Source of the DNA: an uncultured virus (IMG/VR IMGVR_UViG_3300037067_013648)
Taxonomy: Duplodnaviria; Heunggongvirae; Uroviricota; Caudoviricetes
Reading direction: 5' to 3' (one strand)
Length of the DNA stretch: 63,712 bases
IMG/VR virus record: IMGVR_UViG_3300037067_013648
The notes beneath the pieces were generated by a model. That model searched no databases. It was not told where the DNA came from and saw only the letters and a list, made by a program, of their open reading frames with translations. The first letter of the stretch is position 1; the number at the start of each line of letters is the position of its first letter. This document shows positions 11,621 to 44,944 of the stretch, in pieces. Position numbers and translations under genes: made by a program.

Positions 11621-13333
11621 TTATGGTGTATATTGATTTACTTCTGATGATACAGCCAATCCAGTCCATCCATTGCATATATAACCTAAACTATTTAAAC
11701 TGAAACCAGTTAATCCATATCTTCCAGTTCCACCGTTAGCTTTAGTAGCCCAAGTGTTAGTTGAATCATTGTATTGATTGACTTCACTTTGATAACCTAA
11801 GCCATTCTCACCATTACATATATAACCATGGTTTATATCAAAACTAGCTAGATAACGTCTTGCAGTTCCACCAGCAGCTTTATTTGACCATGAATTAGTT
11901 GAATCATTATATTGATTAACTTCACTTGAATATGATCCAGTATCTCCATCACATATATAACCGTAACTGTTTAAACTAAAACCAGTTAAAGCATGTCTTG
12001 CAGTTCCACCAGTAGCTTTAGTTGTCCAAGTATTGGCTACATCATCATATTGATTAACTTCACTTGAATATGCACTTCCATTACAAATATATCCATAATT
12101 ATTAAAACTAAAACTGGCTAATCCATTTCTAGCTGTTCCACCAGTAGCTTTAGTTGTCCAAGTATTAATTGAATCATCATATTTGTTAACTTCACTTGAA
12201 TTTATTCCAGTATCTCCATTACAAATGTATCCATAACTATTTAAACTAAAACCAGCTAACCATAATCTTTCTGTACCACCAGTCGCTTTATTTGACCATG
12301 TATTAGATGAATCATTATATTGATTAACTTCGGAAGAATTTGTTCCTGTATAACCATCACAGATATATCCAAAACTATTTAAACTAAAGCCAGTTAATCC
12401 ATATCTAGCTGTGCCACCACCAGCTTTAGTAGTCCAAAAATCGCCAGTGCTAGATGAAGATAAAGAAGATCCTGAATTAGAACTTATAGATTGAGAACTT
12501 ATAGATTGAGAAGATAAAGATTGAGAAGAATTAGAAGAACCTGAAGAGTCAGATAACGATTTGGAACTAGCTGATGAATTAGATGTGACTGATGAATTAG
12601 ATGTAACTGTTGATTCAGAACTAGATAAAGATTTAGATGATTCACTTGAAATAATATCTGGAGAAGATTCAGAAGAATTAGATGAATTAGAAGATGAAGA
12701 TGATTCATCTTCAATTAAACATGGGGCATCACCTTTCATAAGTCTAATTAATTGAACAATAGTTTTAGGAATTTTATTACCAGTAATGTTATATCCATCT
12801 ACTTTATCAAATAATTCAGGATTATTCAAATTGTTACTACATAATATTATCTCTCTAATATATTCAATATCTATAACTTTATTCCATAGACCAATATCAG
12901 AAACAGTCATTTGAAATGAAGAAGTACCAATAAAATTTTTATATATCCATATTTGTCTATCATGTTCATCACCATAAACTATATTATATAATAAGGTATA
13001 TTTCTTTAATTCACCGTTAACATAAAATTTAAATAATATTCCATCCCAGGTAAATGCTAAATGATACCATTCATTATTAATTATTGGAATATCGCAAACT
13101 AACTTAGTAAGACCAATCTTAGCAGTTAAATGAGAATTTTTCTTTATCGGAGTTAAACCAAATGAAAATCCTAGATTTTTATGTCCACAAATATGTTTTT
13201 CTATATGACTATTTTTTCCTTTAAACCAGCACATAAAAGTAATAGCATCAATCGGAGCATAATCATAAGAATTTTCAGGAGTTAAAATTCTAAACTCATC
13301 ACTATAATTTTTAAATAAGACATTATTTGACAT
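11621..13333 (-). CDS. LamG/concanavalin-like domain + Ser-rich linker + six Kelch-like repeats
   Basis: WYHLAFTWDG..FYVNG LamG signature; poly-Ser linker; 6 x ~46-aa repeats W..KA.GGT.R..L..F.....GYIC.G....SSEVNQY. Confidence 0.82.
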   Translation of the reverse strand: MSNNVLFKNYSDEFRILTPENSYDYAPIDAITFMCWFKGKNSHIEKHICGHKNLGFSFGLTPIKKNSHLTAKIGLTKLVCDIPIINNEWYHLAFTWDGILFKFYVNGELKKYTLLYNIVYGDEHDRQIWIYKNFIGTSSFQMTVSDIGLWNKVIDIEYIREIILCSNNLNNPELFDKVDGYNITGNKIPKTIVQLIRLMKGDAPCLIEDESSSSSNSSNSSESSPDIISSESSKSLSSSESTVTSNSSVTSNSSASSKSLSDSSGSSNSSQSLSSQSISSQSISSNSGSSLSSSSTGDFWTTKAGGGTARYGLTGFSLNSFGYICDGYTGTNSSEVNQYNDSSNTWSNKATGGTERLWLAGFSLNSYGYICNGDTGINSSEVNKYDDSINTWTTKATGGTARNGLASFSFNNYGYICNGSAYSSEVNQYDDVANTWTTKATGGTARHALTGFSLNSYGYICDGDTGSYSSEVNQYNDSTNSWSNKAAGGTARRYLASFDINHGYICNGENGLGYQSEVNQYNDSTNTWATKANGGTGRYGLTGFSLNSLGYICNGWTGLAVSSEVNQYTP

Positions 13334-18364: not shown

Positions 18365-20461
18365 ATGACGAAAACTCTGAGTAATTCAGAGGAAGTAAAT
18401 TCTTCTTCAACTCATAATGAGGCAATGTCTGATTATGTTATTACTACAAGATATGCTAGATATGATACAAAGAAGAAAAGGAGAGAAACTTGGAAAGAAA
18501 TGATTTATCGTGTTAGGGACATGCATAAATTTAGATATGGAACTAAAGGACTTGATAAAGATATAGATTGGGCATTTGAACAAGTACTTCAAAAGCGTAT
18601 ACTTCCTAGCATGAGATCATTGCAATTTGGTGGTGATGCGATTATTGCTAATGATGCTAGAATTTATAATTGTTCTTTTTCTTTAGCTGATCGCCAAAGA
18701 TTTTTTAGTGAAGCGTTATGGTTATTATTAAGTGGTGTTGGTGTTGGATTTAGTGTTCAAAAACAACATATTGCTAAGCTTCCTAAACTTATTAAACATG
18801 CTGATGCTTCAGAAAAGGAAGTAACAACTTATGTTGTTGGTGATACTATTGAAGGATGGGCTGATGCTGTTGAAATATTAATGAATTCTTATTTTGTTGG
18901 TAATCCATTGTCTGGTAAAGAAGTATTTTTTGATTATTCAAAAATTCGTCGTAAGGGATCTTGGCTAAAGACAAGTGGTGGCCGTGCTCCTGGTCCTAAG
19001 CCATTAATGAAAGCTATTAAACATATAAAGAAATTATTACATGATGCTGTAGAAATTGGTCAAGAACAATTAAAGCCTATCAATGTTTACGATATTACTA
19101 TGATAGCTGCTGATTGTGTTTTAGCTGGTGGTATTCGTAGATCAGCAACTATTTGTTTATTTTCAGAAGATGATGATGAGATGATGCAAGCAAAAAGTAT
19201 TGTAGTGCGTGGAAAATTATTATCATGTAATTCTAAAGATGATACTTGGCTTACAGATCATGGAGAAGCTATAAATATTAATGGTGACAATTTAAAATCT
19301 GGTGATGAAGTTGATCTTGGATGGTATAATCTTTATCCATGGCGTGCACGGTCTAATAACTCAGTTGCTTTACTTAAAGATAATTGCAAATATGAACAAT
19401 TTCAGAGGATAATTGAAAATACTAAAAAATTTGGTGAGCCAGGATTTATTTTTTTGAACAATCTTGATCATGGATATAACCCATGTAGTGAAATAGGTCT
19501 TAATCCGGTTGATGTTACCGGCATTACTGGATGGGGATTTTGTAATTTATGTGAAATTAATGGTGGCAAAATTAGTAACATTGATGATTTTAAAATTGCA
19601 GTTAAAGCAGCTTCTATAATTGGTACTTTGCAAGCAGGATACACATATTTAAACTATTTAACAGATGCAACTAGAAATATAGTAAGAAGAGAAGCTTTGT
19701 TAGGTATTTCTATTACTGGACTTATGGATAATCCTGACGTTCTTCTTAATGATAATTATCAAAGAGAGATGGCTAAATATGCTGTTGAAATAAATAAAGA
19801 ATTTTCTGATAAGATTGGTATTAATCAAGCTGCAAGAGTAACATGTGTTAAACCTAGTGGATCAACTTCATTAGTTCTTAGTACTGGATCTGGAATTCAT
19901 CCGCATCATTCAAAATATTATTTCCGTAGAATTGTGGCTAACACTGTTGAACAACCATTAAAATATTTTGAATTGCATAATCCAAAAATGGTTGAGAAAT
20001 CAATTTGGGGTTCTAATGATAAAGTAATAACATTTTGTATTAAAGCACCTGATAATGCCATTATTAAAGATGATTTAAATGCTATTCAATTTCTTAAAAA
20101 TGTAAAAAACACTTATGAAAATTGGGTTGTTCATGGTACTGCTAAACCAGATTCAAGCCCTGGTTTAACACATAATGTATCCAATACTATATTAGTTAAT
20201 GATAATGAATGGGAAGAAGTTACTAAATATATTTTTAAAAATCGTCATTGTTTTTCTGGTATCAGTTTATTACCTAAATGTGGTGATAAGATATATATGC
20301 AAGCACCATTTGAAAGAGTTGAATCAGATAAAGATATTAAGAAATGGAATGAGTTGACAAAAGATTATACTAATGTTGATTGGTCTTTATTTGAAGAGAA
20401 TGAAGACTATACTGGTCATAAAGATATTATTGCGTGTGCAGGTGGTGCTTGTGAGAGATAA
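18365..20461 (+). CDS. nrdJ: class II (adenosylcobalamin-dependent) ribonucleotide reductase
   Basis: YNCSF, GGIRRSA, NPCSEI, TCVKPSG, C-terminal ACAGGACE. Confidence 0.92.
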   Translation: MTKTLSNSEEVNSSSTHNEAMSDYVITTRYARYDTKKKRRETWKEMIYRVRDMHKFRYGTKGLDKDIDWAFEQVLQKRILPSMRSLQFGGDAIIANDARIYNCSFSLADRQRFFSEALWLLLSGVGVGFSVQKQHIAKLPKLIKHADASEKEVTTYVVGDTIEGWADAVEILMNSYFVGNPLSGKEVFFDYSKIRRKGSWLKTSGGRAPGPKPLMKAIKHIKKLLHDAVEIGQEQLKPINVYDITMIAADCVLAGGIRRSATICLFSEDDDEMMQAKSIVVRGKLLSCNSKDDTWLTDHGEAININGDNLKSGDEVDLGWYNLYPWRARSNNSVALLKDNCKYEQFQRIIENTKKFGEPGFIFLNNLDHGYNPCSEIGLNPVDVTGITGWGFCNLCEINGGKISNIDDFKIAVKAASIIGTLQAGYTYLNYLTDATRNIVRREALLGISITGLMDNPDVLLNDNYQREMAKYAVEINKEFSDKIGINQAARVTCVKPSGSTSLVLSTGSGIHPHHSKYYFRRIVANTVEQPLKYFELHNPKMVEKSIWGSNDKVITFCIKAPDNAIIKDDLNAIQFLKNVKNTYENWVVHGTAKPDSSPGLTHNVSNTILVNDNEWEEVTKYIFKNRHCFSGISLLPKCGDKIYMQAPFERVESDKDIKKWNELTKDYTNVDWSLFEENEDYTGHKDIIACAGGACER

Positions 20462-20466
20462 GATGT

Positions 20467-20940
20467 ATGTTACAAAACATGGTAAAATGTACAAAATATA
20501 CAATAGTATTAGCTGAAGTACCAAATGAAGTAAGTATAGGATTTAATATAACTGGTTGTCCTCATAAATGTAAAAATTGTCATTCTCCAGAACTTCAAAA
20601 TGAAAATAATGGTGAATATTTGTCAGATCAATTAATTACAAACATTATTTCAAAATATAATAATTTTGTTTCATGTGTATGTTTTTTTGGTGGTGAATGG
20701 AAACAAAATTGGTTGATTGATAAATTAAATATTATAAAGAATAATTTTAAGTTAAAAACATGTTTGTATACTGGGCTTGATAAATTGCCAAATGAAATTT
20801 TAAATAATTTAGATTATGTTAAATATGGAAGATATATAGAAGAATTTGGCGGATTATCTAGTAAATTTACTAATCAAAAATTTTTTCATGTTCCAACAAA
20901 TTCTCTTCTTAATCATCTTTTTATAAAGGAAAGCATGTGA
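20467..20940 (+). CDS. nrdG: anaerobic RNR activating enzyme (radical SAM)
   Basis: GCPHKCKNCHS, FFGGEW, LDYVKYGRY, TNQKF. Confidence 0.92.
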   Translation: MLQNMVKCTKYTIVLAEVPNEVSIGFNITGCPHKCKNCHSPELQNENNGEYLSDQLITNIISKYNNFVSCVCFFGGEWKQNWLIDKLNIIKNNFKLKTCLYTGLDKLPNEILNNLDYVKYGRYIEEFGGLSSKFTNQKFFHVPTNSLLNHLFIKESM

Positions 20941-22718
20941 TCAGGTTAACTGAGGCTCAATTAAACAACAAAATAAAGTTCATAAATGATTATATAAAAG
21001 CTGAAAATGCCTCAACTGGTTCTGTAGTTGATCCAAATGCTAATATAACAAGTAAGAATATAGGTACATTAGAAGCTGAATTACATAAAGACATTAATAT
21101 TCAATTAAATAGAAGATTACTTTGCAATAAAATTAAAGAATCATTTGGTGAAGAATTAGCTAACCAATATATTTCTGATTTAGAATCTCATCTTATTTAT
21201 TGTCATGATGAAACATCTCTTAAGCCATATTGCGTATCGATTTCGATGTATCCTTTTTTGTTTGATGGATTGAAGACTTTAGGTGGTGAATCTATAGCTC
21301 CTTGTCATTTAGAATCGTTCTGTGGTAATTTTATTAATTTAATTTTTGCAATAGGTGCACAGTTTGCTGGTGCTGTTGCCACTGTTGAATTTTTGGCATA
21401 TTTTGATCATTTTGCTCGTATCGATTATGGTGATAATTATTTATTAGAAAAAGAAGAAATAATTAAAAATCATTTTGAACATGTAATATATGCATTAAAT
21501 CAACCAGCCGCAGCTAGAGGCCATCAGTCATTATTTTGGAATATTTCAATATTTGATAAATCATATTTTAAATCATTGTTTGAGAATTTTGTATTTCCTG
21601 ATGGTAGTAAAATGGAATGGAAAACTTTAAAGAAATTACAGAATTATTTTATGACATGGTTTAATAAAGAACGTAAGCGTGCTATACTGACATTTCCTGT
21701 TGTTACGGCAGCATTTTTAAATGATGGTAAACAAGCCATTGATAAAGAATTTAAAGATATGCTAACTAAAGAATTATCAGAAGGAAATTCATTTTTTATG
21801 TATTTGTCTGATTCAGCAGATTCATTAGCCTCATGCTGTAGATTACGTAATGAAATGTCCGATAATACTTTCAGTTATTCACTTGGTGCTGGTGGTGTAG
21901 CAACTGGAAGTATTAATGTTATAACTTTGAATATGAATAGATTGGTACAAAAAGGAATTGATTTAAAAGAACAAATTATAAAAATGCAGAAATATCAAAT
22001 AGGATATAGAAAATTAATTGAAGATTTTTTGAATGCCGGAATGTTATCTGTATACAATGCTGGATATATAACTTTAGATAAACAATTTTTAACTATTGGC
22101 ATTAATGGAATGGTTGAAGCAGCAGAATCATTGGGAATTATTCCTGGAAATAATGATGAGTATAAAAAATTTGTTTCTGAAAAATTGAAAATTATTTATG
22201 ATCAAAATAAGAAAATGCGTTCAGAAACAGGATATATGTTCAATACTGAATTCGTTCCTGCTGAAAATCTTGGTGTAAAATTTGCAATGTGGGATATTAA
22301 AGATAAATTAAAAGTTAAACGTTCATGTTATAATTCTTACTTCTTTCCAGTTGAAGATGAAAATATCAATATAATAGATAAGTTTGTATTACATGGCAGA
22401 GAAATCAATAAATATTTAGATGGTGGATCTGCACTCCATTTGAATTTGGAGCAATATTGTACTAAAGATGGGTATGATAAATTAATAGATATAGCTATAA
22501 AAACTGGAACAAATTATTTCTGTACTAATATATTAATAACATATTGTGAAGACTGTGGATTTATAGATAAAAATACTCAAGATCATTGTACTAAATGTGG
22601 GTCAAAGAATATTAGTCATGCTACTAGAATTATTGGATATCTTAAGAAAATAACATCTTGGTCATCTATGCGTAAAACAGAACATGTACAGAGACATTAT
22701 CATAAAGAATTTATATAG
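20937..22718 (+). CDS. nrdD: class III anaerobic ribonucleoside-triphosphate reductase (no ATP cone)
   Basis: TFPV, SCCRL, VPAENL, CxxC..CxxC, glycyl-radical loop TRIIGYL. Confidence 0.95.
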   Translation: MIRLTEAQLNNKIKFINDYIKAENASTGSVVDPNANITSKNIGTLEAELHKDINIQLNRRLLCNKIKESFGEELANQYISDLESHLIYCHDETSLKPYCVSISMYPFLFDGLKTLGGESIAPCHLESFCGNFINLIFAIGAQFAGAVATVEFLAYFDHFARIDYGDNYLLEKEEIIKNHFEHVIYALNQPAAARGHQSLFWNISIFDKSYFKSLFENFVFPDGSKMEWKTLKKLQNYFMTWFNKERKRAILTFPVVTAAFLNDGKQAIDKEFKDMLTKELSEGNSFFMYLSDSADSLASCCRLRNEMSDNTFSYSLGAGGVATGSINVITLNMNRLVQKGIDLKEQIIKMQKYQIGYRKLIEDFLNAGMLSVYNAGYITLDKQFLTIGINGMVEAAESLGIIPGNNDEYKKFVSEKLKIIYDQNKKMRSETGYMFNTEFVPAENLGVKFAMWDIKDKLKVKRSCYNSYFFPVEDENINIIDKFVLHGREINKYLDGGSALHLNLEQYCTKDGYDKLIDIAIKTGTNYFCTNILITYCEDCGFIDKNTQDHCTKCGSKNISHATRIIGYLKKITSWSSMRKTEHVQRHYHKEFI

Positions 22719-22725
22719 TATTTAA
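22717..22725 (+). promoter_or_regulatory. class B motif (A/T)GTATTTAA, representative copy
   Basis: Also at 13667, 18303, 40740, 46765, 59638 (+) and 27063, 36884, 39392 (-). Confidence 0.65.
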
Positions 22726-22730
22726 AAATT

Positions 22731-23684
22731 ATGAAACAATACGTTGACTTAATTAATCGTATATTGGAAACTGGAACTCAGCATAATGATAGAACTGGAA
22801 CAGGTACTATAAGAATATTTGGTGCACTTGAGAGATTTAATTTGCAGGATGGTTTTCCTATTATTACTACAAAGAAGATGGCAAAAAAGACTATGTGGGT
22901 TGAATTAATTGGATTTGTTAGAGGCATAACAAATAATATGTGGTATACAGATCATGGATGTAATATTTGGACAGCTAATCAAAAAGCTTTTGCTGCTAAG
23001 TATGACACAAAACATCAAGATAGTCCATGGCCTGAGGAAGAAATGGGTCCAATTTATGGTGCACAATGGAGAAGTTTTGATGGGAAATATAATATCAATA
23101 ATCCTGCAGGAGAATGCCCAACAATTATTAAAGGTGAAGTTGAAGAAACCAAAAATATTAATTATTTAAATCATAGAGGCGTTGATGGTTTTGATCAGCT
23201 TAAATGGCTTGTTAACGAAATTAAGACTAATCCTAATAGCAGACGAATGATAGTATCTGCATGGAATCCAAATCAATTTGGTATTATGTGCTTACCACCA
23301 TGTCATATTATGTGGCAAGTAATAGTTAATAATGGTAAACTTAGTTTGATGTTTTATATTAGATCTAATGATATAGGATTAGGATGGCCTTTTAATATAG
23401 CTTCATATGCTACTCTTGCTCATATGTTAGCACACTGTACTGATTTGCAAGTTGGTGAATTAGTATGGACATGTTGTGATGCTCATATTTATAATGATCA
23501 TATTGAAGCATTAAAAATTCAAATATCTAGAAAACCGAGAGCCTTACCAAAATTTAAGATTAATACTGATATTAAAGATATTAATAAAATAAATTGGACT
23601 CATTTTGAATTAACTGATTATAATCCATGGGATGAAAATGATCCCGATACTGTCCCAATGCCAAAAATGAAAATGTCAGTATAA
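22731..23684 (+). CDS. thyA: thymidylate synthase
   Basis: DRTGTGT, GPIYGAQWR, LPPCH, RSNDIGLGWPFN, DAHIYNDH. Confidence 0.95.
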   Translation: MKQYVDLINRILETGTQHNDRTGTGTIRIFGALERFNLQDGFPIITTKKMAKKTMWVELIGFVRGITNNMWYTDHGCNIWTANQKAFAAKYDTKHQDSPWPEEEMGPIYGAQWRSFDGKYNINNPAGECPTIIKGEVEETKNINYLNHRGVDGFDQLKWLVNEIKTNPNSRRMIVSAWNPNQFGIMCLPPCHIMWQVIVNNGKLSLMFYIRSNDIGLGWPFNIASYATLAHMLAHCTDLQVGELVWTCCDAHIYNDHIEALKIQISRKPRALPKFKINTDIKDINKINWTHFELTDYNPWDENDPDTVPMPKMKMSV

Positions 23685-24294: not shown

Positions 24295-24564
24295 ATGGAA
24301 TCTAAAACTAAACTAGTATGGTTCATTGACTGTTCTGGAATGAAAGATTATGAAATAAATGCTAAATTAAAACAACTAATGAATTATACTAACGCCAATA
24401 GATTCTTTAGTACATTTCAACTATTAATTATACCAGCAAAAGAAAATAAATTCCAAATATTAGATAGCGATATAGAAATTAATAAAGATCCAAAAGAATT
24501 AGAAAATTGGTTGGAATCTATAAAGAATAAATTAAAAAATTGCTTAACAGTTTATTTAAAATAA
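24295..24564 (+). CDS. hypothetical protein
   Basis: ORF with AAGGA RBS. Confidence 0.6.
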   Translation: MESKTKLVWFIDCSGMKDYEINAKLKQLMNYTNANRFFSTFQLLIIPAKENKFQILDSDIEINKDPKELENWLESIKNKLKNCLTVYLK

Positions 24565-25384: not shown

Positions 25385-26029
25385 TTACGGCATTTTAATA
25401 TTTAAATCTATATATTTTTGTCCTCTATTTGTTGTATATTTATCTGGATTTAAAATTTTATTTTCAACACACCATAATATAACTGATTCAGGTTTATCTT
25501 TATGGTCAATTTTTATTGGTAATAATTTATAATTATATCCATCGTGTAATTCTGTATGACAATTATGACACATTAAAGAACATTTGTTTAATTCGTCTAT
25601 TATCTTGTCTAAATTATAAGTTAAAACCATTCCTCTTATATTAAATATTTTCATTGTTTGATCAATATGATGAAAAGTTAATGATGACATACACCTGTTA
25701 TAACCACAAACGCAACATTTACCTCCTGATTTATATATAGCCCATGCCTTAACAGAATCTCTTAATATTAATTTTCTAATGTTGTTTTTCGATTTACTAC
25801 TAATTTGTCGTGTTATATTATTTTCCTTGTCTGTGATCATCTTATTAGTTAATATTTTTATTTTAATTTTATCAATATTATTTTTAATATTTTCATTTTC
25901 AGTTAAAGAATTACACCATTTAGATATTGTTGACTTTGAAAATCCAGTTATTTTCTTAATTTTTCTGCATCCAAGACCTTGTTTTCGTAATTCTATAATT
26001 TTGATTGCTTGTTCTGAATATTGAAACAT
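25385..26029 (-). CDS. HNH (homing) endonuclease with N-terminal HTH
   Basis: GLGCRKIKKITGFSKSTISKW HTH; CCVCGY...LTFHH...CSLMCHNCHTELH. Confidence 0.85.
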   Translation of the reverse strand: MFQYSEQAIKIIELRKQGLGCRKIKKITGFSKSTISKWCNSLTENENIKNNIDKIKIKILTNKMITDKENNITRQISSKSKNNIRKLILRDSVKAWAIYKSGGKCCVCGYNRCMSSLTFHHIDQTMKIFNIRGMVLTYNLDKIIDELNKCSLMCHNCHTELHDGYNYKLLPIKIDHKDKPESVILWCVENKILNPDKYTTNRGQKYIDLNIKMP

Positions 26030-26071
26030 ACGAACCTCCAGACATTAAATTTGCCTGGAGGTTCGTATGTT
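26025..26071 (-). promoter_or_regulatory. 17-bp perfect hairpin occluding GGAGG and ATG of the HNH gene
   Basis: AACATACGAACCTCCAG (26025-26041) pairs with CTGGAGGTTCGTATGTT (26055-26071); 13-nt loop. Confidence 0.85.
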
Positions 26072-26073
26072 GA

Positions 26074-26154
26074 TGGAACCAAGGGAGGGGCTCGAACCCT
26101 CATTTTCATCCAATTACGTTACTCGGACTTAGAAGGACCGGACGATACCTTGGC
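26074..26154 (-). tRNA. atypical tRNA-like RNA, anticodon UCU (Arg), no D-arm, long extra region, encoded CCA
   Basis: GCCAAGG/CCTTGGT acceptor; CGGTC-CTTCTAA-GTCCG anticodon arm; GAGGG-TTCGAGC-CCCTC T-arm; TCCA end. Confidence 0.8.
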
Positions 26155-27070: not shown

Positions 27071-30000
27071 TTATCTAACTATAAATTCTGGTGATCCTCC
27101 TGGGCCTATTTGCATTACGCCTATTCCATCATTTGCTGATGATGTACTTGATGATCCACCAACTGGGGCTGCTGATGATAATGATGATTCAGATGTATTA
27201 GAAGATATAGTAGAAATTGAGCTTGTTGATGATGAATTGCTGCTTATAGATGATATAGAACTAGCTGATGATAGTGAATTAGTGCTTGCTGATGTTGCAG
27301 TTGATTGTGAACTTAATGATTTACTGCTTGATGATGAACTTGATTGGGAGCTAACTGATGTAGGAGTGGATTGTGAACTTATTGATTGGGAGCTAACTGA
27401 TGTAGGAGTGGATTGTGAACTTATTGATTGGGAACTAACTGATGTAGCAGATGTAGGAGTGGATTGTGAACTAGCTGATTTACTACTTGATGATGAACTA
27501 TTACTTTGTGAACTTAATGATTTACTGCTTGATGAACTTGATTGAGAACTAATAGATGTAATAGTCGACTGAGAACTAACTGATTGAGAACTAACTGATG
27601 TATCTGATGTAGGAGTTGATTGAGAACTAACTGATTGAGAACTAACTGATGTATCTGATGTAGGAGTTGATTGAGAACTAACTGATTGAGAACTAACTGA
27701 TGTTAATGATGTAGGAGTTGACTCAGAACTAGATGAACTACTTTGAGATGTATCTGATGAAATAGTTGATTGAGAACTTATTGATTCAGAACTAATTGAT
27801 GTAGCAGATGTAGCTGTTGATTGAGTACTTTCTGATTCATTAGTTTGAGACGAAACACTACTAATTGAAGTTGGAGATGAAGAACTAGAATTATCTGATT
27901 GAGAACTAACTGATGTAGCAGATGTTGGAGTTGATTCAGAGCTTATTGATTGTGAACTAATTGATGTAGCAGATGTAGGAGTTGACTGAGAACTTACTGA
28001 CTGGGAGCTAACAGACTGGGAACTAACTGATGTAGGAGTGGATTGAGAGCTAACTGATGTAGGAGTGGACTGTGAACTAACTGATTGGGAACTAACTGAT
28101 GTAGCAGATGTAAGAGTTGATTCAGAACTAACTGATTTACTACTGGATGATGAACTGTTGCTTTGTGAACTTAATGATTTACTGCTTGATGAACTAGATT
28201 GTGAACTAATAGATGTATCAGATGAAATGGTTGATTGAGAACTAATTGATTCAGAACTTACTGATGTTATTGATGTTGCTGTTGATTGAGTACTATCAGA
28301 TTCACCAGTTTGAGATGAAACACTACTAATAGAAGTTAAAGAAGTTGGTGAAGAAGATGAAGAACTAGAATTATCTGACTGAGAACTATTGGACTGAGAA
28401 CTTATAGAAGAATTAGAAGTATCAGATGTAGGAGTAGATTGTGAACTAATTGATTGAGAACTTGCAGATGATACTGATGTTGCTGTTGATTCAGAACTAG
28501 ATGATGAACTGATTGATGCCAATGATGTAACTGTGGATTGTGAACTATCAGATATAGAACTGATGGATGTATCAGATGAAATTGTAGACTGAGAACTTAT
28601 TGATTGAGAACTAACAGATGTATCAGATGTTGCTGTTGATTGAGTACTGTCAGATTCACCAGTCTGGGATGAAACGCTACTTATAGAAGTTTGAGATGAA
28701 TCAGAAGAAGATGAAGAACTAGAATTATCTGATTGAGAACTTGCAGATGAGTTAGAAGTAATAGATGAAGGAGTTGATTCAGAACTTATAGATTGTGAAC
28801 TAGCTGATGTAGCAGATGTTTGAGTTGATTGTGAACTTATAGATTCAGAACTAACTGACGTAGCAGATGTTGGAGTGGATTGTGAACTTACTGATTGAGA
28901 ACTAACAGATGTTGCAGATGTTGCTGTAGATTGAGTACTATCAGATGCACCAGTTTGAGATGAAACACTACTTACAGAGGTTTGAGACGAATCAGAAGAA
29001 GATGAAGAACTAGAATTATCTGACTGAGAACTTATAGAAGAATTTGAAGTAGCTGATGAAATAGTAGATTGTGAACTAATTGATTGTGAACTAATAGATG
29101 TATCAGATGTAATAGTAGACTGAGAGCTTATTGATTGTGAACTAATTGATGTATCAGATGTAATAGTAGACTGAGAACTTATAGATTCAGAGCTTACTGA
29201 TGTAGGGGTAGATTGTGAGCTAACAGATTCAGAACTAACTGATGTGGGAGTAGACTGTGAACTAACAGACTGAGAACTAATAGATGTATCTGATGAAATA
29301 ATAGACTGAGAACTTACCGATTGAGAACTTACTGATGTTATTGATGTTGCTGTTGATTGAGTACTATCAGATTCACCAGTCTGAGATGAAACACTACTAA
29401 TAGAAGTCAACGAAGTTGGAGAAGAAGATGAAGAACTAGAATTATCAGACTGGGAACTTACAGAAGAATTAGAAGTAGCAGATGTAGGAGTAGACTGAGA
29501 ACTTACAGATTCAGAACTAACCGAAGTAATAGATGATGGTGTAGATTGAGAACTAATTGACTTACTACTAGATGAACTAGACTGAGAACTAACTGAAGTA
29601 ATAGATGTTGGAGTAGACTGTGAACTAACCGATTGAGAACTAACAGATGTTAATGATGTAGGAGTAGATTGAGAGCTAACAGACTGAGAAGATAAAGATT
29701 GAGAACTTATAGAACTAATAGAAGTATTAGATGATGGTGTAGAATAAGAACTTGCTGACTCACCAGAAACAGAACTCAATGATGAACTAGTTGATTCTGA
29801 TAAATTAGTACTAATTGATGTTCCAGATACAGCACTTAATGATGAATTACTAGAAATAGAAGAATTAGTAGATGGAGATGAGTTAGAACTTTGTGAAGTT
29901 GATTCTGAAGAATTAGTAGATTGAGACGATTTTGAACTAGATGAAGATGAATTAGTTGATTGAGAAGAATCAGAACTAGATGAAGATGAAGAGCCAGAAG

Positions 30001-30547
30001 AATTAGAAGAAATAGAAGTAGCAGATGAAATAGATGAACTTGAAGTATCAGATGATACTAAACTCATAGTTTGAGATGAATGTGATTCATTAGAAACAGT
30101 ACTAATACTTGAAGAAGAAGTTGAAATAGAAGAATTACTAGAATTACTTGATATAGATGATTCAGAAGTATCTGAAGAATTAGAAGATAATGATGATTGA
30201 GAATCATAAGAATTACTAGATTCAGAACCAATAGTTTGTTCTGTAATTGGAATAATTTGCTTAACTTTGGGTTGTCCAAAAGCATCTGCAGTTCTGAATT
30301 CAACTAATACTATTTCACCACAATATATGTAATGCCTGTTATTTCTTTCATTAACGTGAAGCTTAACATCATTAGTCCATAATCTTATATCATCAGGAAT
30401 AGCAAGAATTAATTTTCTATAACTAAAATATATAGTCCTACATATAATACCATTAATCATACCAGTAATATATGTCTTATCTAAACCAGTACCAACAATT
30501 TCCAATGCAGAACCAACCTGCTTCAAAGAATATATAGTAATGCTCAT
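27071..30547 (-). CDS. giant Ser/Thr-rich repeat protein (mucin-like stalk), probable virion fibre
   Basis: ~105-aa globular N-terminus, ~1000 aa of S/T/Q/V/I/D repeats, C-terminal GIGVMQIGPGGSPEFIVR. Confidence 0.8.
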   Translation of the reverse strand: MSITIYSLKQVGSALEIVGTGLDKTYITGMINGIICRTIYFSYRKLILAIPDDIRLWTNDVKLHVNERNNRHYIYCGEIVLVEFRTADAFGQPKVKQIIPITEQTIGSESSNSYDSQSSLSSNSSDTSESSISSNSSNSSISTSSSSISTVSNESHSSQTMSLVSSDTSSSSISSATSISSNSSGSSSSSSSDSSQSTNSSSSSSKSSQSTNSSESTSQSSNSSPSTNSSISSNSSLSAVSGTSISTNLSESTSSSLSSVSGESASSYSTPSSNTSISSISSQSLSSQSVSSQSTPTSLTSVSSQSVSSQSTPTSITSVSSQSSSSSSKSISSQSTPSSITSVSSESVSSQSTPTSATSNSSVSSQSDNSSSSSSSPTSLTSISSVSSQTGESDSTQSTATSITSVSSQSVSSQSIISSDTSISSQSVSSQSTPTSVSSESVSSQSTPTSVSSESISSQSTITSDTSISSQSISSQSTITSDTSISSQSISSQSTISSATSNSSISSQSDNSSSSSSSDSSQTSVSSVSSQTGASDSTQSTATSATSVSSQSVSSQSTPTSATSVSSESISSQSTQTSATSASSQSISSESTPSSITSNSSASSQSDNSSSSSSSDSSQTSISSVSSQTGESDSTQSTATSDTSVSSQSISSQSTISSDTSISSISDSSQSTVTSLASISSSSSSESTATSVSSASSQSISSQSTPTSDTSNSSISSQSNSSQSDNSSSSSSSPTSLTSISSVSSQTGESDSTQSTATSITSVSSESISSQSTISSDTSISSQSSSSSSKSLSSQSNSSSSSSKSVSSESTLTSATSVSSQSVSSQSTPTSVSSQSTPTSVSSQSVSSQSVSSQSTPTSATSISSQSISSESTPTSATSVSSQSDNSSSSSPTSISSVSSQTNESESTQSTATSATSISSESISSQSTISSDTSQSSSSSSESTPTSLTSVSSQSVSSQSTPTSDTSVSSQSVSSQSTPTSDTSVSSQSVSSQSTITSISSQSSSSSSKSLSSQSNSSSSSSKSASSQSTPTSATSVSSQSISSQSTPTSVSSQSISSQSTPTSVSSQSSSSSSSKSLSSQSTATSASTNSLSSASSISSISSNSSSTSSISTISSNTSESSLSSAAPVGGSSSTSSANDGIGVMQIGPGGSPEFIVR

Positions 30548-32718: not shown

Positions 32719-32934
32719 ATGAGTAATTGCCCTTGTTCTGAATTAGAAGAAGCAAGGAAACATAGTCCTACTGGATATGTTCATAAGCAATTATATAATC
32801 AAATTACTGAACGATATAATGATGCAATTAAATTACTTAAGGAGATAGAATCTCCAGGGGTTGTCATTGATGGTCAAGTGTTTGTTAATTACGACTTAAA
32901 AGATCGTATTAAAGAGTTTCTTAATAGTATTTAA
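32719..32934 (+). CDS. hypothetical protein
   Basis: ORF with AAGGA RBS. Confidence 0.6.
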   Translation: MSNCPCSELEEARKHSPTGYVHKQLYNQITERYNDAIKLLKEIESPGVVIDGQVFVNYDLKDRIKEFLNSI

Positions 32935-32946
32935 TAAAATATTCAT

Positions 32947-44011: not shown

Positions 44012-44944
44012 ATGAAATTAAATAGTTTAAATAAGTCGAAAATTAGAATTGGAGTTGTTGGGTATTCAACTAAATATTTTAATAAAAAAGAAGCTGAGTC
44101 TAAATTAAAAGAATTAATTAATAAAATAGTTAAAAATAGCAAGTTACCTATTACTATAGTTTCAGGATTAACAAATATAGGTATTTCAGCAATTGCTTAT
44201 AAAATAGCCAAAGAATATGGATATAAAACTGCTGGATATGCATGTGAAAAAGCTAATGAATTTGAATTATTTGATGTAGACCATAAAAAGATAATTGGAA
44301 AAAATTGGGGAGATGAAAGTGAAGAATTTCTTAATAATACAGACTATTTAATAAGAATTGGTGGTAGTGAACAATCAGAAAAAGAAATTAATAATGCAAA
44401 AGAATTAGGAATCAAAACTTATGAATATAATATAGAGCCTAAGGTATCATATTGTTTAATGGGATATATTGATAAATCTTGTGCTAATGATATTCATAAA
44501 CAAGTTAAATCATTTAAAGCTAGAGAGATCAAACCAATTAATAGTTATCATACTACTATTAGATATTGGCTTTCTGATGTTGATAAATCTATATCAAAAA
44601 TTATTGATTATTTAAATAATAGATTTAAGTACCAAACTATATTAGAAGCTGAATTCAATGGTGAAATTGAAACTTTTGGTAATGAGAAATCATATGTATT
44701 ATTATTGAATAGCGATTTATTAATGGCATTTCAAAAAGATATTGATGAAAATTTGCAAAAATTTGGAGCGCCACCATCTGATTTTTCAGATTACAAACCA
44801 CATATTACTGTAGCAGAAGGTGTGACTAAAGATAAAAAGATTGATAATTGTAAAGTTATTATTAATAAATGGATTTTAACAACTAATGATGACTCAACTA
44901 AAGATTCTGAAACAATATGGGAGAAAGAGTTTAAATTAAAATAG
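44012..44944 (+). CDS. SLOG-like domain fused to 2H phosphoesterase
   Basis: N-term IGVVGYS, IVSGLTNIG, IRIGGS; C-term YHTTI and PHITV (two HxT). Confidence 0.7.
   Translation: MKLNSLNKSKIRIGVVGYSTKYFNKKEAESKLKELINKIVKNSKLPITIVSGLTNIGISAIAYKIAKEYGYKTAGYACEKANEFELFDVDHKKIIGKNWGDESEEFLNNTDYLIRIGGSEQSEKEINNAKELGIKTYEYNIEPKVSYCLMGYIDKSCANDIHKQVKSFKAREIKPINSYHTTIRYWLSDVDKSISKIIDYLNNRFKYQTILEAEFNGEIETFGNEKSYVLLLNSDLLMAFQKDIDENLQKFGAPPSDFSDYKPHITVAEGVTKDKKIDNCKVIINKWILTTNDDSTKDSETIWEKEFKLK

What the first reader, a model, noticed from the sequence alone, without database searches (positions are those of the whole stretch)
26074..26154. tRNA-like RNA with no D-arm and a D-loop motif displaced to the variable-arm side
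Seen: 81 nt, GCCAAGG-TATCGTC-CGGTC(CTTCTAA)GTCCG-AGTAACGTAATTGGATGAAAAT-GAGGG(TTCGAGC)CCCTC-CCTTGGT-T-CCA. Acceptor, T-arm, a 7-nt UCU anticodon loop and CCA are intact, but only 7 nt link acceptor and anticodon stems. The 22-nt segment after the anticodon arm contains AATTGGAT, a typical D-loop string. Known: G18G19 dock on the T-loop and A20 is an ArgRS identity element. Inference: TA(T)CGT pairs with ACGTA to lengthen the anticodon helix and the GGA builds the elbow from the opposite strand, giving a rewired tRNA. It could be a working Arg tRNA or a decoy for anticodon nucleases. The U discriminator is atypical for Arg.
Basis: partly seen in the sequence, partly recalled or inferred. Interest (0 to 1): 0.78.

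Follow-up and report, generated by a model that had tools for sequence, protein, structure and literature searches.

The report
Phage tRNA with strand-swapped core
This is most likely a working arginine tRNA from a widespread, overlooked class of phage tRNAs whose chain is threaded in a different order from the textbook cloverleaf yet appears to rebuild the same L-shaped core, with matching arginine and isoleucine versions.

Summary
Real; minus strand, 26074-26154. It belongs to a large family: 438 distinct copies among 803 fetched loci, from uncultured and cultured phages and bacterial tRNA arrays. The segment order is acceptor-U8A9, positions 22-26, anticodon arm, positions 10-21, U48, T arm: the D-arm halves have swapped sides of the anticodon arm. 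The swapped helix covaries (two pairs 87/87, 30 double changes each). The tertiary Levitt pair covaries: A15 gives U48 in 86/87; G15 gives C48 49, G48 13, U48 5 of 67. Anticodons cover all six Arg slots plus GAU/UAU/CAU. A20 tracks Arg (233/236 versus 5/196) and A73 tracks Ile/Met (195/196). Records with a rewired UCU gene rarely hold a canonical one (3/33 versus 10/14). Best reading: a decoding tRNA-Arg(UCU) of a non-cloverleaf class. Caveats: no RNA or charging data; this copy alone of 87 has a U30·U40 mismatch. Nine literature searches found no description. The scan noted this Arg-UCU class before on other DNA (e1-4040161); the Ile series, Levitt covariation and slot test were obtained here.

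The parts
26074..26154 (-). Strand-swapped (non-cloverleaf) tRNA-Arg(UCU) gene with encoded CCA
   Evidence: model R1 score 81.5 bits (the window copy is in the training set)
26148..26154 (-). Acceptor stem 5' strand (1-7); pairs with 26084-26078, G1·U72 wobble
   Evidence: sequence; helix 99.5% paired in family
26146..26147 (-). U8 A9
   Evidence: 87/87, not part of the first search pattern
26141..26145 (-). Relocated D-stem 3' strand: U22, C23 G24 U25, C26
   Evidence: pairs 23:12 and 24:11 87/87, 25:10 57/87
26124..26140 (-). Anticodon arm; anticodon UCU at 26133-26131; U30·U40 mismatch in this copy
26120..26123 (-). Linker from position 43 to position 10 (stands where 44-47 would be)
   Evidence: parse; numbering is inference
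26116..26119 (-). Relocated D-stem 5' strand: A10 C11 G12, U13
26108..26115 (-). Relocated D loop: A14 A15 U U G18 G19 A20 U; A20 at 26109
   Evidence: A20 tracks Arg anticodons; the same loop string is in 36/114 canonical Arg genes and at most 6 of any other isotype
26102..26107 (-). Linker ending in A21-like (26103) and U48 (26102), the Levitt partner of A15
26085..26101 (-). T arm, 5 bp plus 7-nt loop
26074..26077 (-). Discriminator U73 and CCA
   Evidence: sequence; PMC9976931 Table 1 passage
26025..26071 (-). 20-bp hairpin starting 2 nt after CCA; buries GGAGG (26039-26035) and the start codon of the next gene
   Evidence: -33.5 kcal/mol, z -9.95, 0/200 shuffles; same arrangement described for T4 homing endonuclease genes (PMC2988022 passages)
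25385..26029 (-). 214-aa HNH endonuclease ORF with weak N-terminal HTH; a neighbour, not an obligatory partner
   Evidence: phrog_2255 E 8e-21; HTH_23 E 0.009, below cut-off; endonuclease neighbours at 10 of 65 UCU loci

Best explanation
The element is a tRNA-Arg(UCU) gene of a distinct structural class. A canonical tRNA runs A(1-9) B(10-21) C(22-47) D(48-76); this class runs A C B D. The three backbone crossings 9-10, 21-22 and 47-48 become 9-22, 47-10 and 21-48. The secondary structure is a three-way junction: acceptor stem, one long D-plus-anticodon helix, T arm. The D-loop bases sit in the junction and rebuild the usual core (U8-A14, Levitt 15:48, G18/G19 on the T loop, A20 at the corner). 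Shown by comparison: the swapped helix, the Levitt pair, identity elements that follow the anticodon, and replacement of the canonical gene. Inferred: it is transcribed with the upstream minus-strand genes, trimmed at the 5' end by host RNase P, charged by host ArgRS and reads AGA, the main Arg codon here. Also inferred: the class arose from tRNA-Arg by a block swap, then spread to other anticodons by duplication and anticodon change, dropping A20 and fixing A73 for Ile. Why phages keep it is open; my leading guess is escape from enzymes that recognise the canonical tRNA or its gene.
For: Swapped helix: 87/87 and 87/87 paired, four Watson-Crick types each; three-pair helix 88.5% versus 27-41% for slid partners, 0/500 shuffles. 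At fixed register both pairs hold in 220/221 Arg and 195/197 Ile/Met copies, with seven dinucleotide types shared by both groups. Levitt pair: A15 fixed, 48 free gives U48 86/87; G15 fixed, 48 free gives C 49, G 13, U 5 of 67; 48 forced non-U gives G15 in 75 of 83. A21-like base 56/57 where the pattern did not require it. Anticodons among 435 copies: UCU 140, UAU 87, GAU 78, ACG 47, CAU 31, UCG 28, CCU 11, CCG 7, GCG 3, UAC 2, CCA 1. A20 233/236 Arg versus 5/196 Ile/Met; A73 195/196 Ile/Met; in scans that did not require A20, 120/122 Arg. These match published identity sets. Slot filling in arrays of >=10 canonical anticodons: canonical UCU 0/17 with versus 17/37 without a rewired UCU; ACG 0/24 versus 15/30; whole records 3/33 versus 10/14. 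Phage Mildred21 has four rewired genes (UCU, UCG, ACG, GAU) and only CCU as canonical Arg in 62-110 kb. AGA is 209 of 343 Arg codons in 29 window ORFs.
Against: No expression, processing, charging or structure data. This copy has U30·U40, unique among 87, and nearest-neighbour energies favour another fold (-24.2 versus -17.2 kcal/mol for the proposed one). Exclusion is not absolute: canonical Arg-UCU lies within 1.5 kb of 4 of 60 copies; GAU co-occurs in 2/9 arrays; UAU, UCG and CCU tests were not significant; one control anticodon (UUC, 6/17 versus 27/37) was also skewed. Loci are related, so p values are overstated. The third pair (25:10) is broken in 30/87. Search patterns fixed G18, G19 and the T loop, and in most scans A14, so their conservation is not independent evidence.
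Confidence: 0.78

Rival explanations
1. Decoy: a tRNA-shaped RNA that soaks up host anticodon nucleases or other tRNA-targeting defences and does not decode.
For: Found mostly in phages and mobile tRNA arrays; the anticodon loop is highly conserved; some genomes keep both forms (3/33 records, 4/60 loci).
Against: A decoy should accompany the tRNA it protects, but this gene usually replaces it. Synthetase determinants outside the anticodon loop (A20, A73) switch with the anticodon, and all six Arg slots are used.
Confidence: 0.08
2. The class is functional but this copy is decaying.
For: U30·U40 is unique among 87 copies; Rfam scores 10 of 20 other members above the tRNA cut-off but not this one; an alternative fold is lower in energy; an HNH gene abuts it.
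Against: Acceptor 7/7, T stem 5/5, swapped helix 3/3, A20 and CCA intact. Contigs from two other studies cover it with 0 and 2 differences (X5 record 22, X6 record 29), which shows the sequence is not an assembly error but says little about selection.
Confidence: 0.08
3. Charged but non-ribosomal: an aminoacyl donor for a transferase or another pathway.
For: Identity elements are kept, which fits any charged RNA; only Arg and Ile/Met series are common.
Against: A non-ribosomal donor has no reason to cover each codon-box slot or to replace the canonical isoacceptor; no fixed partner gene is adjacent (65 neighbouring ORFs, mostly without a family or unrelated to each other).
Confidence: 0.04
4. 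A scrambled precursor that is cut three times and religated into a normal cloverleaf.
For: Segment lengths would give a near-normal tRNA if reordered. RNA ligase genes occur near some members (Pumpernickel; Mildred21; weak hit at window 44012-44944).
Against: No conserved cut motif at the junctions, whose linkers vary in length and sequence; I know of no three-cut reordering (own knowledge); the unprocessed order already satisfies the core contacts.
Confidence: 0.02

Closest known systems
Canonical bacterial and phage tRNA-Arg (Rfam RF00005; identity set in PMC9976931, passages read)
   Same: 7/5 acceptor and T stems, 7-nt anticodon loop, U8, A14, R15:Y48, G18 G19, A20, A21, C35, U/G36, same D-loop string as canonical Arg genes
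   Different: No D hairpin; the D-stem strands flank the anticodon arm in swapped order and the D loop joins the T stem directly. ARAGORN called 2 of 60 and 1 of 132; RF00005 scored 10 of 20 at 29-42 bits.
Mitochondrial D-armless tRNAs, e.g. mt-tRNA-Ser(AGY) (PMC7609411, passages read)
   Same: Short link between acceptor and anticodon stems, no D hairpin
   Different: Those lack the D arm and are described as flexible; here all D-arm elements are kept, relocated and covarying, in phages and bacterial arrays.
Allo-tRNAs, 8/4 and 9/3 (Mukai et al., PMC5389517, passages read)
   Same: Non-standard tRNAs from metagenomes and phages, with Arg and Ile anticodons among them
   Different: Allo-tRNAs keep a D stem-loop and a long V arm and alter the acceptor branch; this class keeps 7/5 and alters chain order.
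Permuted tRNA genes of red algae (recalled, not read here)
   Same: Gene order differs from the canonical 5'-to-3' order
   Different: Those are whole-molecule circular permutations processed back to a cloverleaf; here the ends are normal and an internal block is swapped.
tmRNA tRNA-like domain and bacterial Y RNA YrlA (recalled)
   Same: Acceptor-like stem plus T arm without a standard D arm
   Different: They have no anticodon arm; this class has one. No tmRNA call by ARAGORN and no Rfam match at this place.
T4-type free-standing homing endonuclease genes with RBS-burying hairpins, e.g. segB (PMC2988022, passages read)
   Same: Applies to the neighbour: endonuclease gene beside a tRNA, with a hairpin hiding its ribosome-binding site
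   Different: HNH here, GIY-YIG for segB; no late promoter was identified here; not part of the tRNA class (10 of 65 loci).

Membership tests
Canonical cloverleaf tRNA | 7-bp acceptor stem, 5-bp T stem with T loop, discriminator and CCA | tested here: met
Canonical cloverleaf tRNA | D hairpin (10-13 with 22-25 closing the D loop) between acceptor and anticodon arms | tested here: not met
   link of 7 nt in 77/88 and 8 nt in 10/88; helix formed across the anticodon arm instead
Canonical cloverleaf tRNA | 5-bp anticodon stem with 7-nt loop, U33, R37 | tested here: inconclusive
   family 90.6% paired; this copy has 4 of 5 pairs, U30·U40
Canonical cloverleaf tRNA | Levitt pair 15:48 | tested here: met
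   A:U 292, G:C 100, G:G 30, A:C 7, G:U 5, A:A 1 of 435 pooled over scans with different constraints; one-sided tests
Canonical cloverleaf tRNA | G18/G19 docking on the T loop and L shape | not testable with these tools
   bases invariant and fixed by the search patterns; no RNA 3D tool
Canonical cloverleaf tRNA | RF00005 score at or above 29 bits | tested here: not met
   window copy: no match at E<=1; 10 of 20 other members pass weakly
tRNA-Arg identity (bacteria) | A20, C35, U/G36, A/G/U73 | tested here: met
   window copy A20, UCU, U73; 233/236 A20; set from PMC9976931 Table 1
tRNA-Arg identity (bacteria) | Arginylation by ArgRS and decoding on the ribosome | not testable with these tools
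   needs bench work
Allo-tRNA | 8/4 or 9/3 acceptor branch with Sec-like D stem-loop and long V arm | tested here: not met
   7/5 branch, no D hairpin
Mitochondrial-type D-armless tRNA | D arm lost | tested here: not met
   D stem pairs, D-loop bases and Levitt pair retained in new positions
tmRNA or other Rfam family | Match to the family model | tested here: not met
   (three chance-level matches at E 0.29-0.42, none a tRNA-clan family)

The most novel reading that the evidence does not exclude
A second way to build a ribosomal tRNA: a naturally evolved, widespread, non-cloverleaf class in which the chain crosses the core in a different order, which host synthetases charge and ribosomes use, which has diversified into full Arg and Ile/Met isoacceptor series, and which phages favour because the altered variable-loop face or gene sequence escapes tRNA-targeting defences or homing endonucleases.
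Probability: 0.6. Interest if true: 0.93.

Novelty: new variant of a known kind. Interest (0 to 1): 0.86.

Why it matters
The cloverleaf is treated as near-universal outside mitochondria. This class suggests that the cell's machinery reads the folded core and not the chain order, which can be tested directly because cultured phages carry it (Streptomyces phage Mildred21, Microbacterium phage Pumpernickel, Pseudomonas phage Bitten). It also means phage tRNA inventories are miscounted: members are unannotated or mislabelled (in Mildred21 one as tRNA-Phe, one as 'OTHER', two absent), which affects work on why phages carry tRNAs. A natural scaffold with identity elements that move with the anticodon is also of use for tRNA engineering.

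Tried and rejected
Local deletion pseudogene: rejected by the family. Rival helix pairing positions 22-27 with GGA and the following bases (6 bp, -20.2 kcal/mol in this copy): not conserved, at most 5 of 6 pairs, mostly 2-3, in 418 copies. RNAalifold did not predict the swapped helix on its own; it was named by me and then counted. Fixed tRNA-HNH module: rejected, 10 of 65 loci and several families; no relatives of the window's HNH and no loci returned for the upstream ORF, so the orthologous slot could not be compared. Expression: no RNA holder listed; laid DNA contigs only. Promoter scan: 24 sites versus 19.9 +/- 4.7 in shuffles, uninformative. Anabaena trn array, whose tRNAs were shown charged in vivo (PMC8421152, passages and section 21): no rewired member, best 29 bits, canonical Arg genes. 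Plasmid collection: no match for two queries. Isotypes with G35 or U35: 13 loci, 2 finder hits, one CUU and one neighbouring CCA. Phage T5's annotated tRNA-Arg is canonical. No whole genome is held for the window, so whether this is the phage's only tRNA is unknown. Rows dropped: L016, L044, L088 unparsed and L098 deviant before alignment A1; three canonical false positives; L375 missed by the finder; L447 as duplicate; two records not held; the G042 match judged chance. Pope et al. 2014 on mycobacteriophage tRNAs was not held and may bear on novelty.

Full report
Observation. The quoted RNA is the minus strand of 26074-26154. It sits in an AT-rich (27.7% GC) phage-like window with tail, virion and clamp-loader hits, at the end of a run of minus-strand ORFs. 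ARAGORN and Rfam miss it.

Family. Parsing gave 88 distinct sequences with the window copy; 3 loci did not parse and one deviant was dropped, leaving 87. Features not in the pattern were conserved: U8 A9 87/87, U before the T stem 86/87, A before that 85/87. Later scans relaxed the anticodon, the D loop and position 48. A stricter finder over all 803 loci gave 438 distinct copies, 435 with both core pairs; the window copy fails that finder because of its mismatch. In GTDB 40 of 50 matches passed, mostly inside dense tRNA arrays. Cultured phages carry members: Pumpernickel, XacN1, Bitten and Mildred21; partial BLAST matches in others were not checked.

Structure. The three bases after U8 A9 N pair with the three before U-A-R-Y-Y-G-G. 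Two pairs are 87/87 with 30 double changes and four pair types each; the third is 57/87; slid controls give 27-41%. At fixed register both pairs hold in 220/221 Arg and 195/197 Ile/Met copies, with seven types shared between the groups, which relatedness alone would not give. These are the canonical D-stem pairs 12:23, 11:24 and 10:25 with the strands on opposite sides of the anticodon arm. The sharpest test was tertiary. If the displaced loop is the D loop, its second base should be Levitt position 15 and the base before the T stem position 48. With A15 fixed, 48 was U in 86/87. With G15 fixed and 48 free in metagenomes, 48 was C 49, G 13, U 5 of 67 (120 loci, 90 with a finder hit). With 48 forced non-U in viral contigs, 15 was G in 75 of 83 (118 loci, 93 with a hit). 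R15 and Y48 as semi-conserved bases, G15-C48 as the Levitt pair, and the 10-25-45 and 13-22-46 triples are in PMC10424219 (passages). That the new links 9-22, 47-10 and 21-48 join bases that are neighbours in the folded core is my inference from recalled tRNA geometry; no 3D model was run. Energy models favour another fold for this copy.

Function. Anticodons are not random: all six Arg slots and GAU, UAU, CAU make up 432 of 435. A20 is in 233/236 Arg and 5/196 Ile/Met copies; A73 is in 195/196 Ile/Met copies, the other being cut off, and 66/236 Arg. The first scan required A20; in scans that did not, it was 120/122. These are the published determinants, and U73 is listed for bacterial Arg (PMC9976931, passages). 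CAU copies could be Ile2 or Met; not resolved. In 54 arrays with at least 10 canonical anticodons (of 107 loci after collapsing duplicates), canonical UCU was in 0/17 with a rewired UCU and 17/37 without; ACG 0/24 and 15/30; GAU 2/9 and 31/45; UAU, UCG and CCU not significant; eight of nine control anticodons were level or higher in the rewired group and UUC was lower. Over 47 whole records, canonical Arg-UCU was in 3/33 with and 10/14 without (G015 added because the pattern missed it, so the pattern is not fully sensitive; ambiguous 8-nt loops not counted; many records are fragments). Against strict exclusion, 4 of 60 loci hold both within 1.5 kb. AGA is 209 of 343 Arg codons in 29 window ORFs.

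Origin and purpose (inference). The loop string is that of canonical Arg genes (36/114, against at most 6 in any other isotype), Arg and Ile copies share linker types, and tandem or same-genome paralogues are common, so an Arg origin followed by duplication and anticodon change is the simplest path. In G034 a 3'-half stub of a canonical Arg-UCU gene follows the rewired gene, as expected after replacement. The common isotypes are substrates of class Ia synthetases, which by recalled textbook geometry bind away from the variable-loop face that is rewired here; my patterns were seeded on Arg geometry, so this may be bias. Escape from anticodon nucleases or from homing endonucleases are both untested.

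Neighbour. Two bases after CCA a 20-bp hairpin (z -9.95) buries the ribosome-binding site and start codon of an HNH gene, as described for T4 homing endonucleases (PMC2988022, passages). Endonuclease genes flank 10 of 65 UCU loci (6 of 36 downstream and 4 of 29 upstream ORFs), so it is a passenger.

Novelty. Nine full-text searches listed no description of this topology. In the review of non-canonical tRNAs, 'phage' and 'permut' occur 0 times (PMC7609411, term search and passages); allo-tRNAs differ (PMC5389517, passages); PMC3121705 was irrelevant (passages). The library lacks most subscription papers, one relevant paper was not held, and I read no supplements, so prior description cannot be excluded. 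Later look-ups returned nothing.

Verdict. It works like a tRNA-Arg and fails the cloverleaf membership test on the D hairpin. New variant of a known kind; interest 0.86; confidence 0.78 that this copy is a decoding tRNA of the class.

Noticed in passing
L527:17430-17504 (-), phage T5 NC_005859 41429-41503; also L526:6970-7044: Inside T5's 'RNAX, stable RNA with unknown functions' lies an unannotated tRNA-shaped piece: acceptor stem, a canonical-looking D arm, then the rewired class's 3' half (D strand, D loop, T arm), with no clear anticodon arm. Possibly a hybrid of the two forms.
   Followed up: partly
L528:29368-29446, 24380-24457, 11704-11783, 32858-32937: Phage Mildred21 has four rewired genes; GenBank labels one tRNA-Phe, one tRNA-OTHER and omits two.
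   Followed up: yes
L547 around 1350-1540 (G034): Rewired Arg-UCU gene followed by only the 3' half of a canonical Arg-UCU gene.
   Followed up: partly
family-wide, e.g. L620, L622, L687: 30 of 435 copies have a G15:G48 Levitt pair, a rare type known from tRNA-Cys.
   Followed up: no
L441, L518, L239, L290: Single or rare copies with CCA, CUU and UAC anticodons.
   Followed up: no
L044:1469-1572, L136:274-363, L098: Damaged or deviant copies: T arm cut off by other DNA, a short duplication in the anticodon arm, and a copy without U8 A9 or the swapped helix.
   Followed up: no
L556 (G017), L537 (G035), L533 (G031), L013:26-101, L022:599-671: Canonical-type tRNAs with 8-nt anticodon loops or stop-codon anticodons (CUA, UUA) in phages that were examined.
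   Followed up: no
window 27071-30547 (-): 1158-aa ORF made mostly of Ser/Thr/Gln repeats, no Pfam match.
   Followed up: no
window 18365-23684 (+): By inspection of the translations, two ribonucleotide reductase classes, an activase and thymidylate synthase lie side by side; names recalled, not searched.
   Followed up: no
window 44012-44944 (+): Weak RNA ligase hit (phrog_755, E 2e-7).
   Followed up: no
window 26074-26130, run X2 record 12: A 1108-nt contig matches the tRNA's 3' part with 5 differences and has other DNA past the CCA; it may be a relative without the hairpin and HNH gene, or another phage's copy.
   Followed up: no
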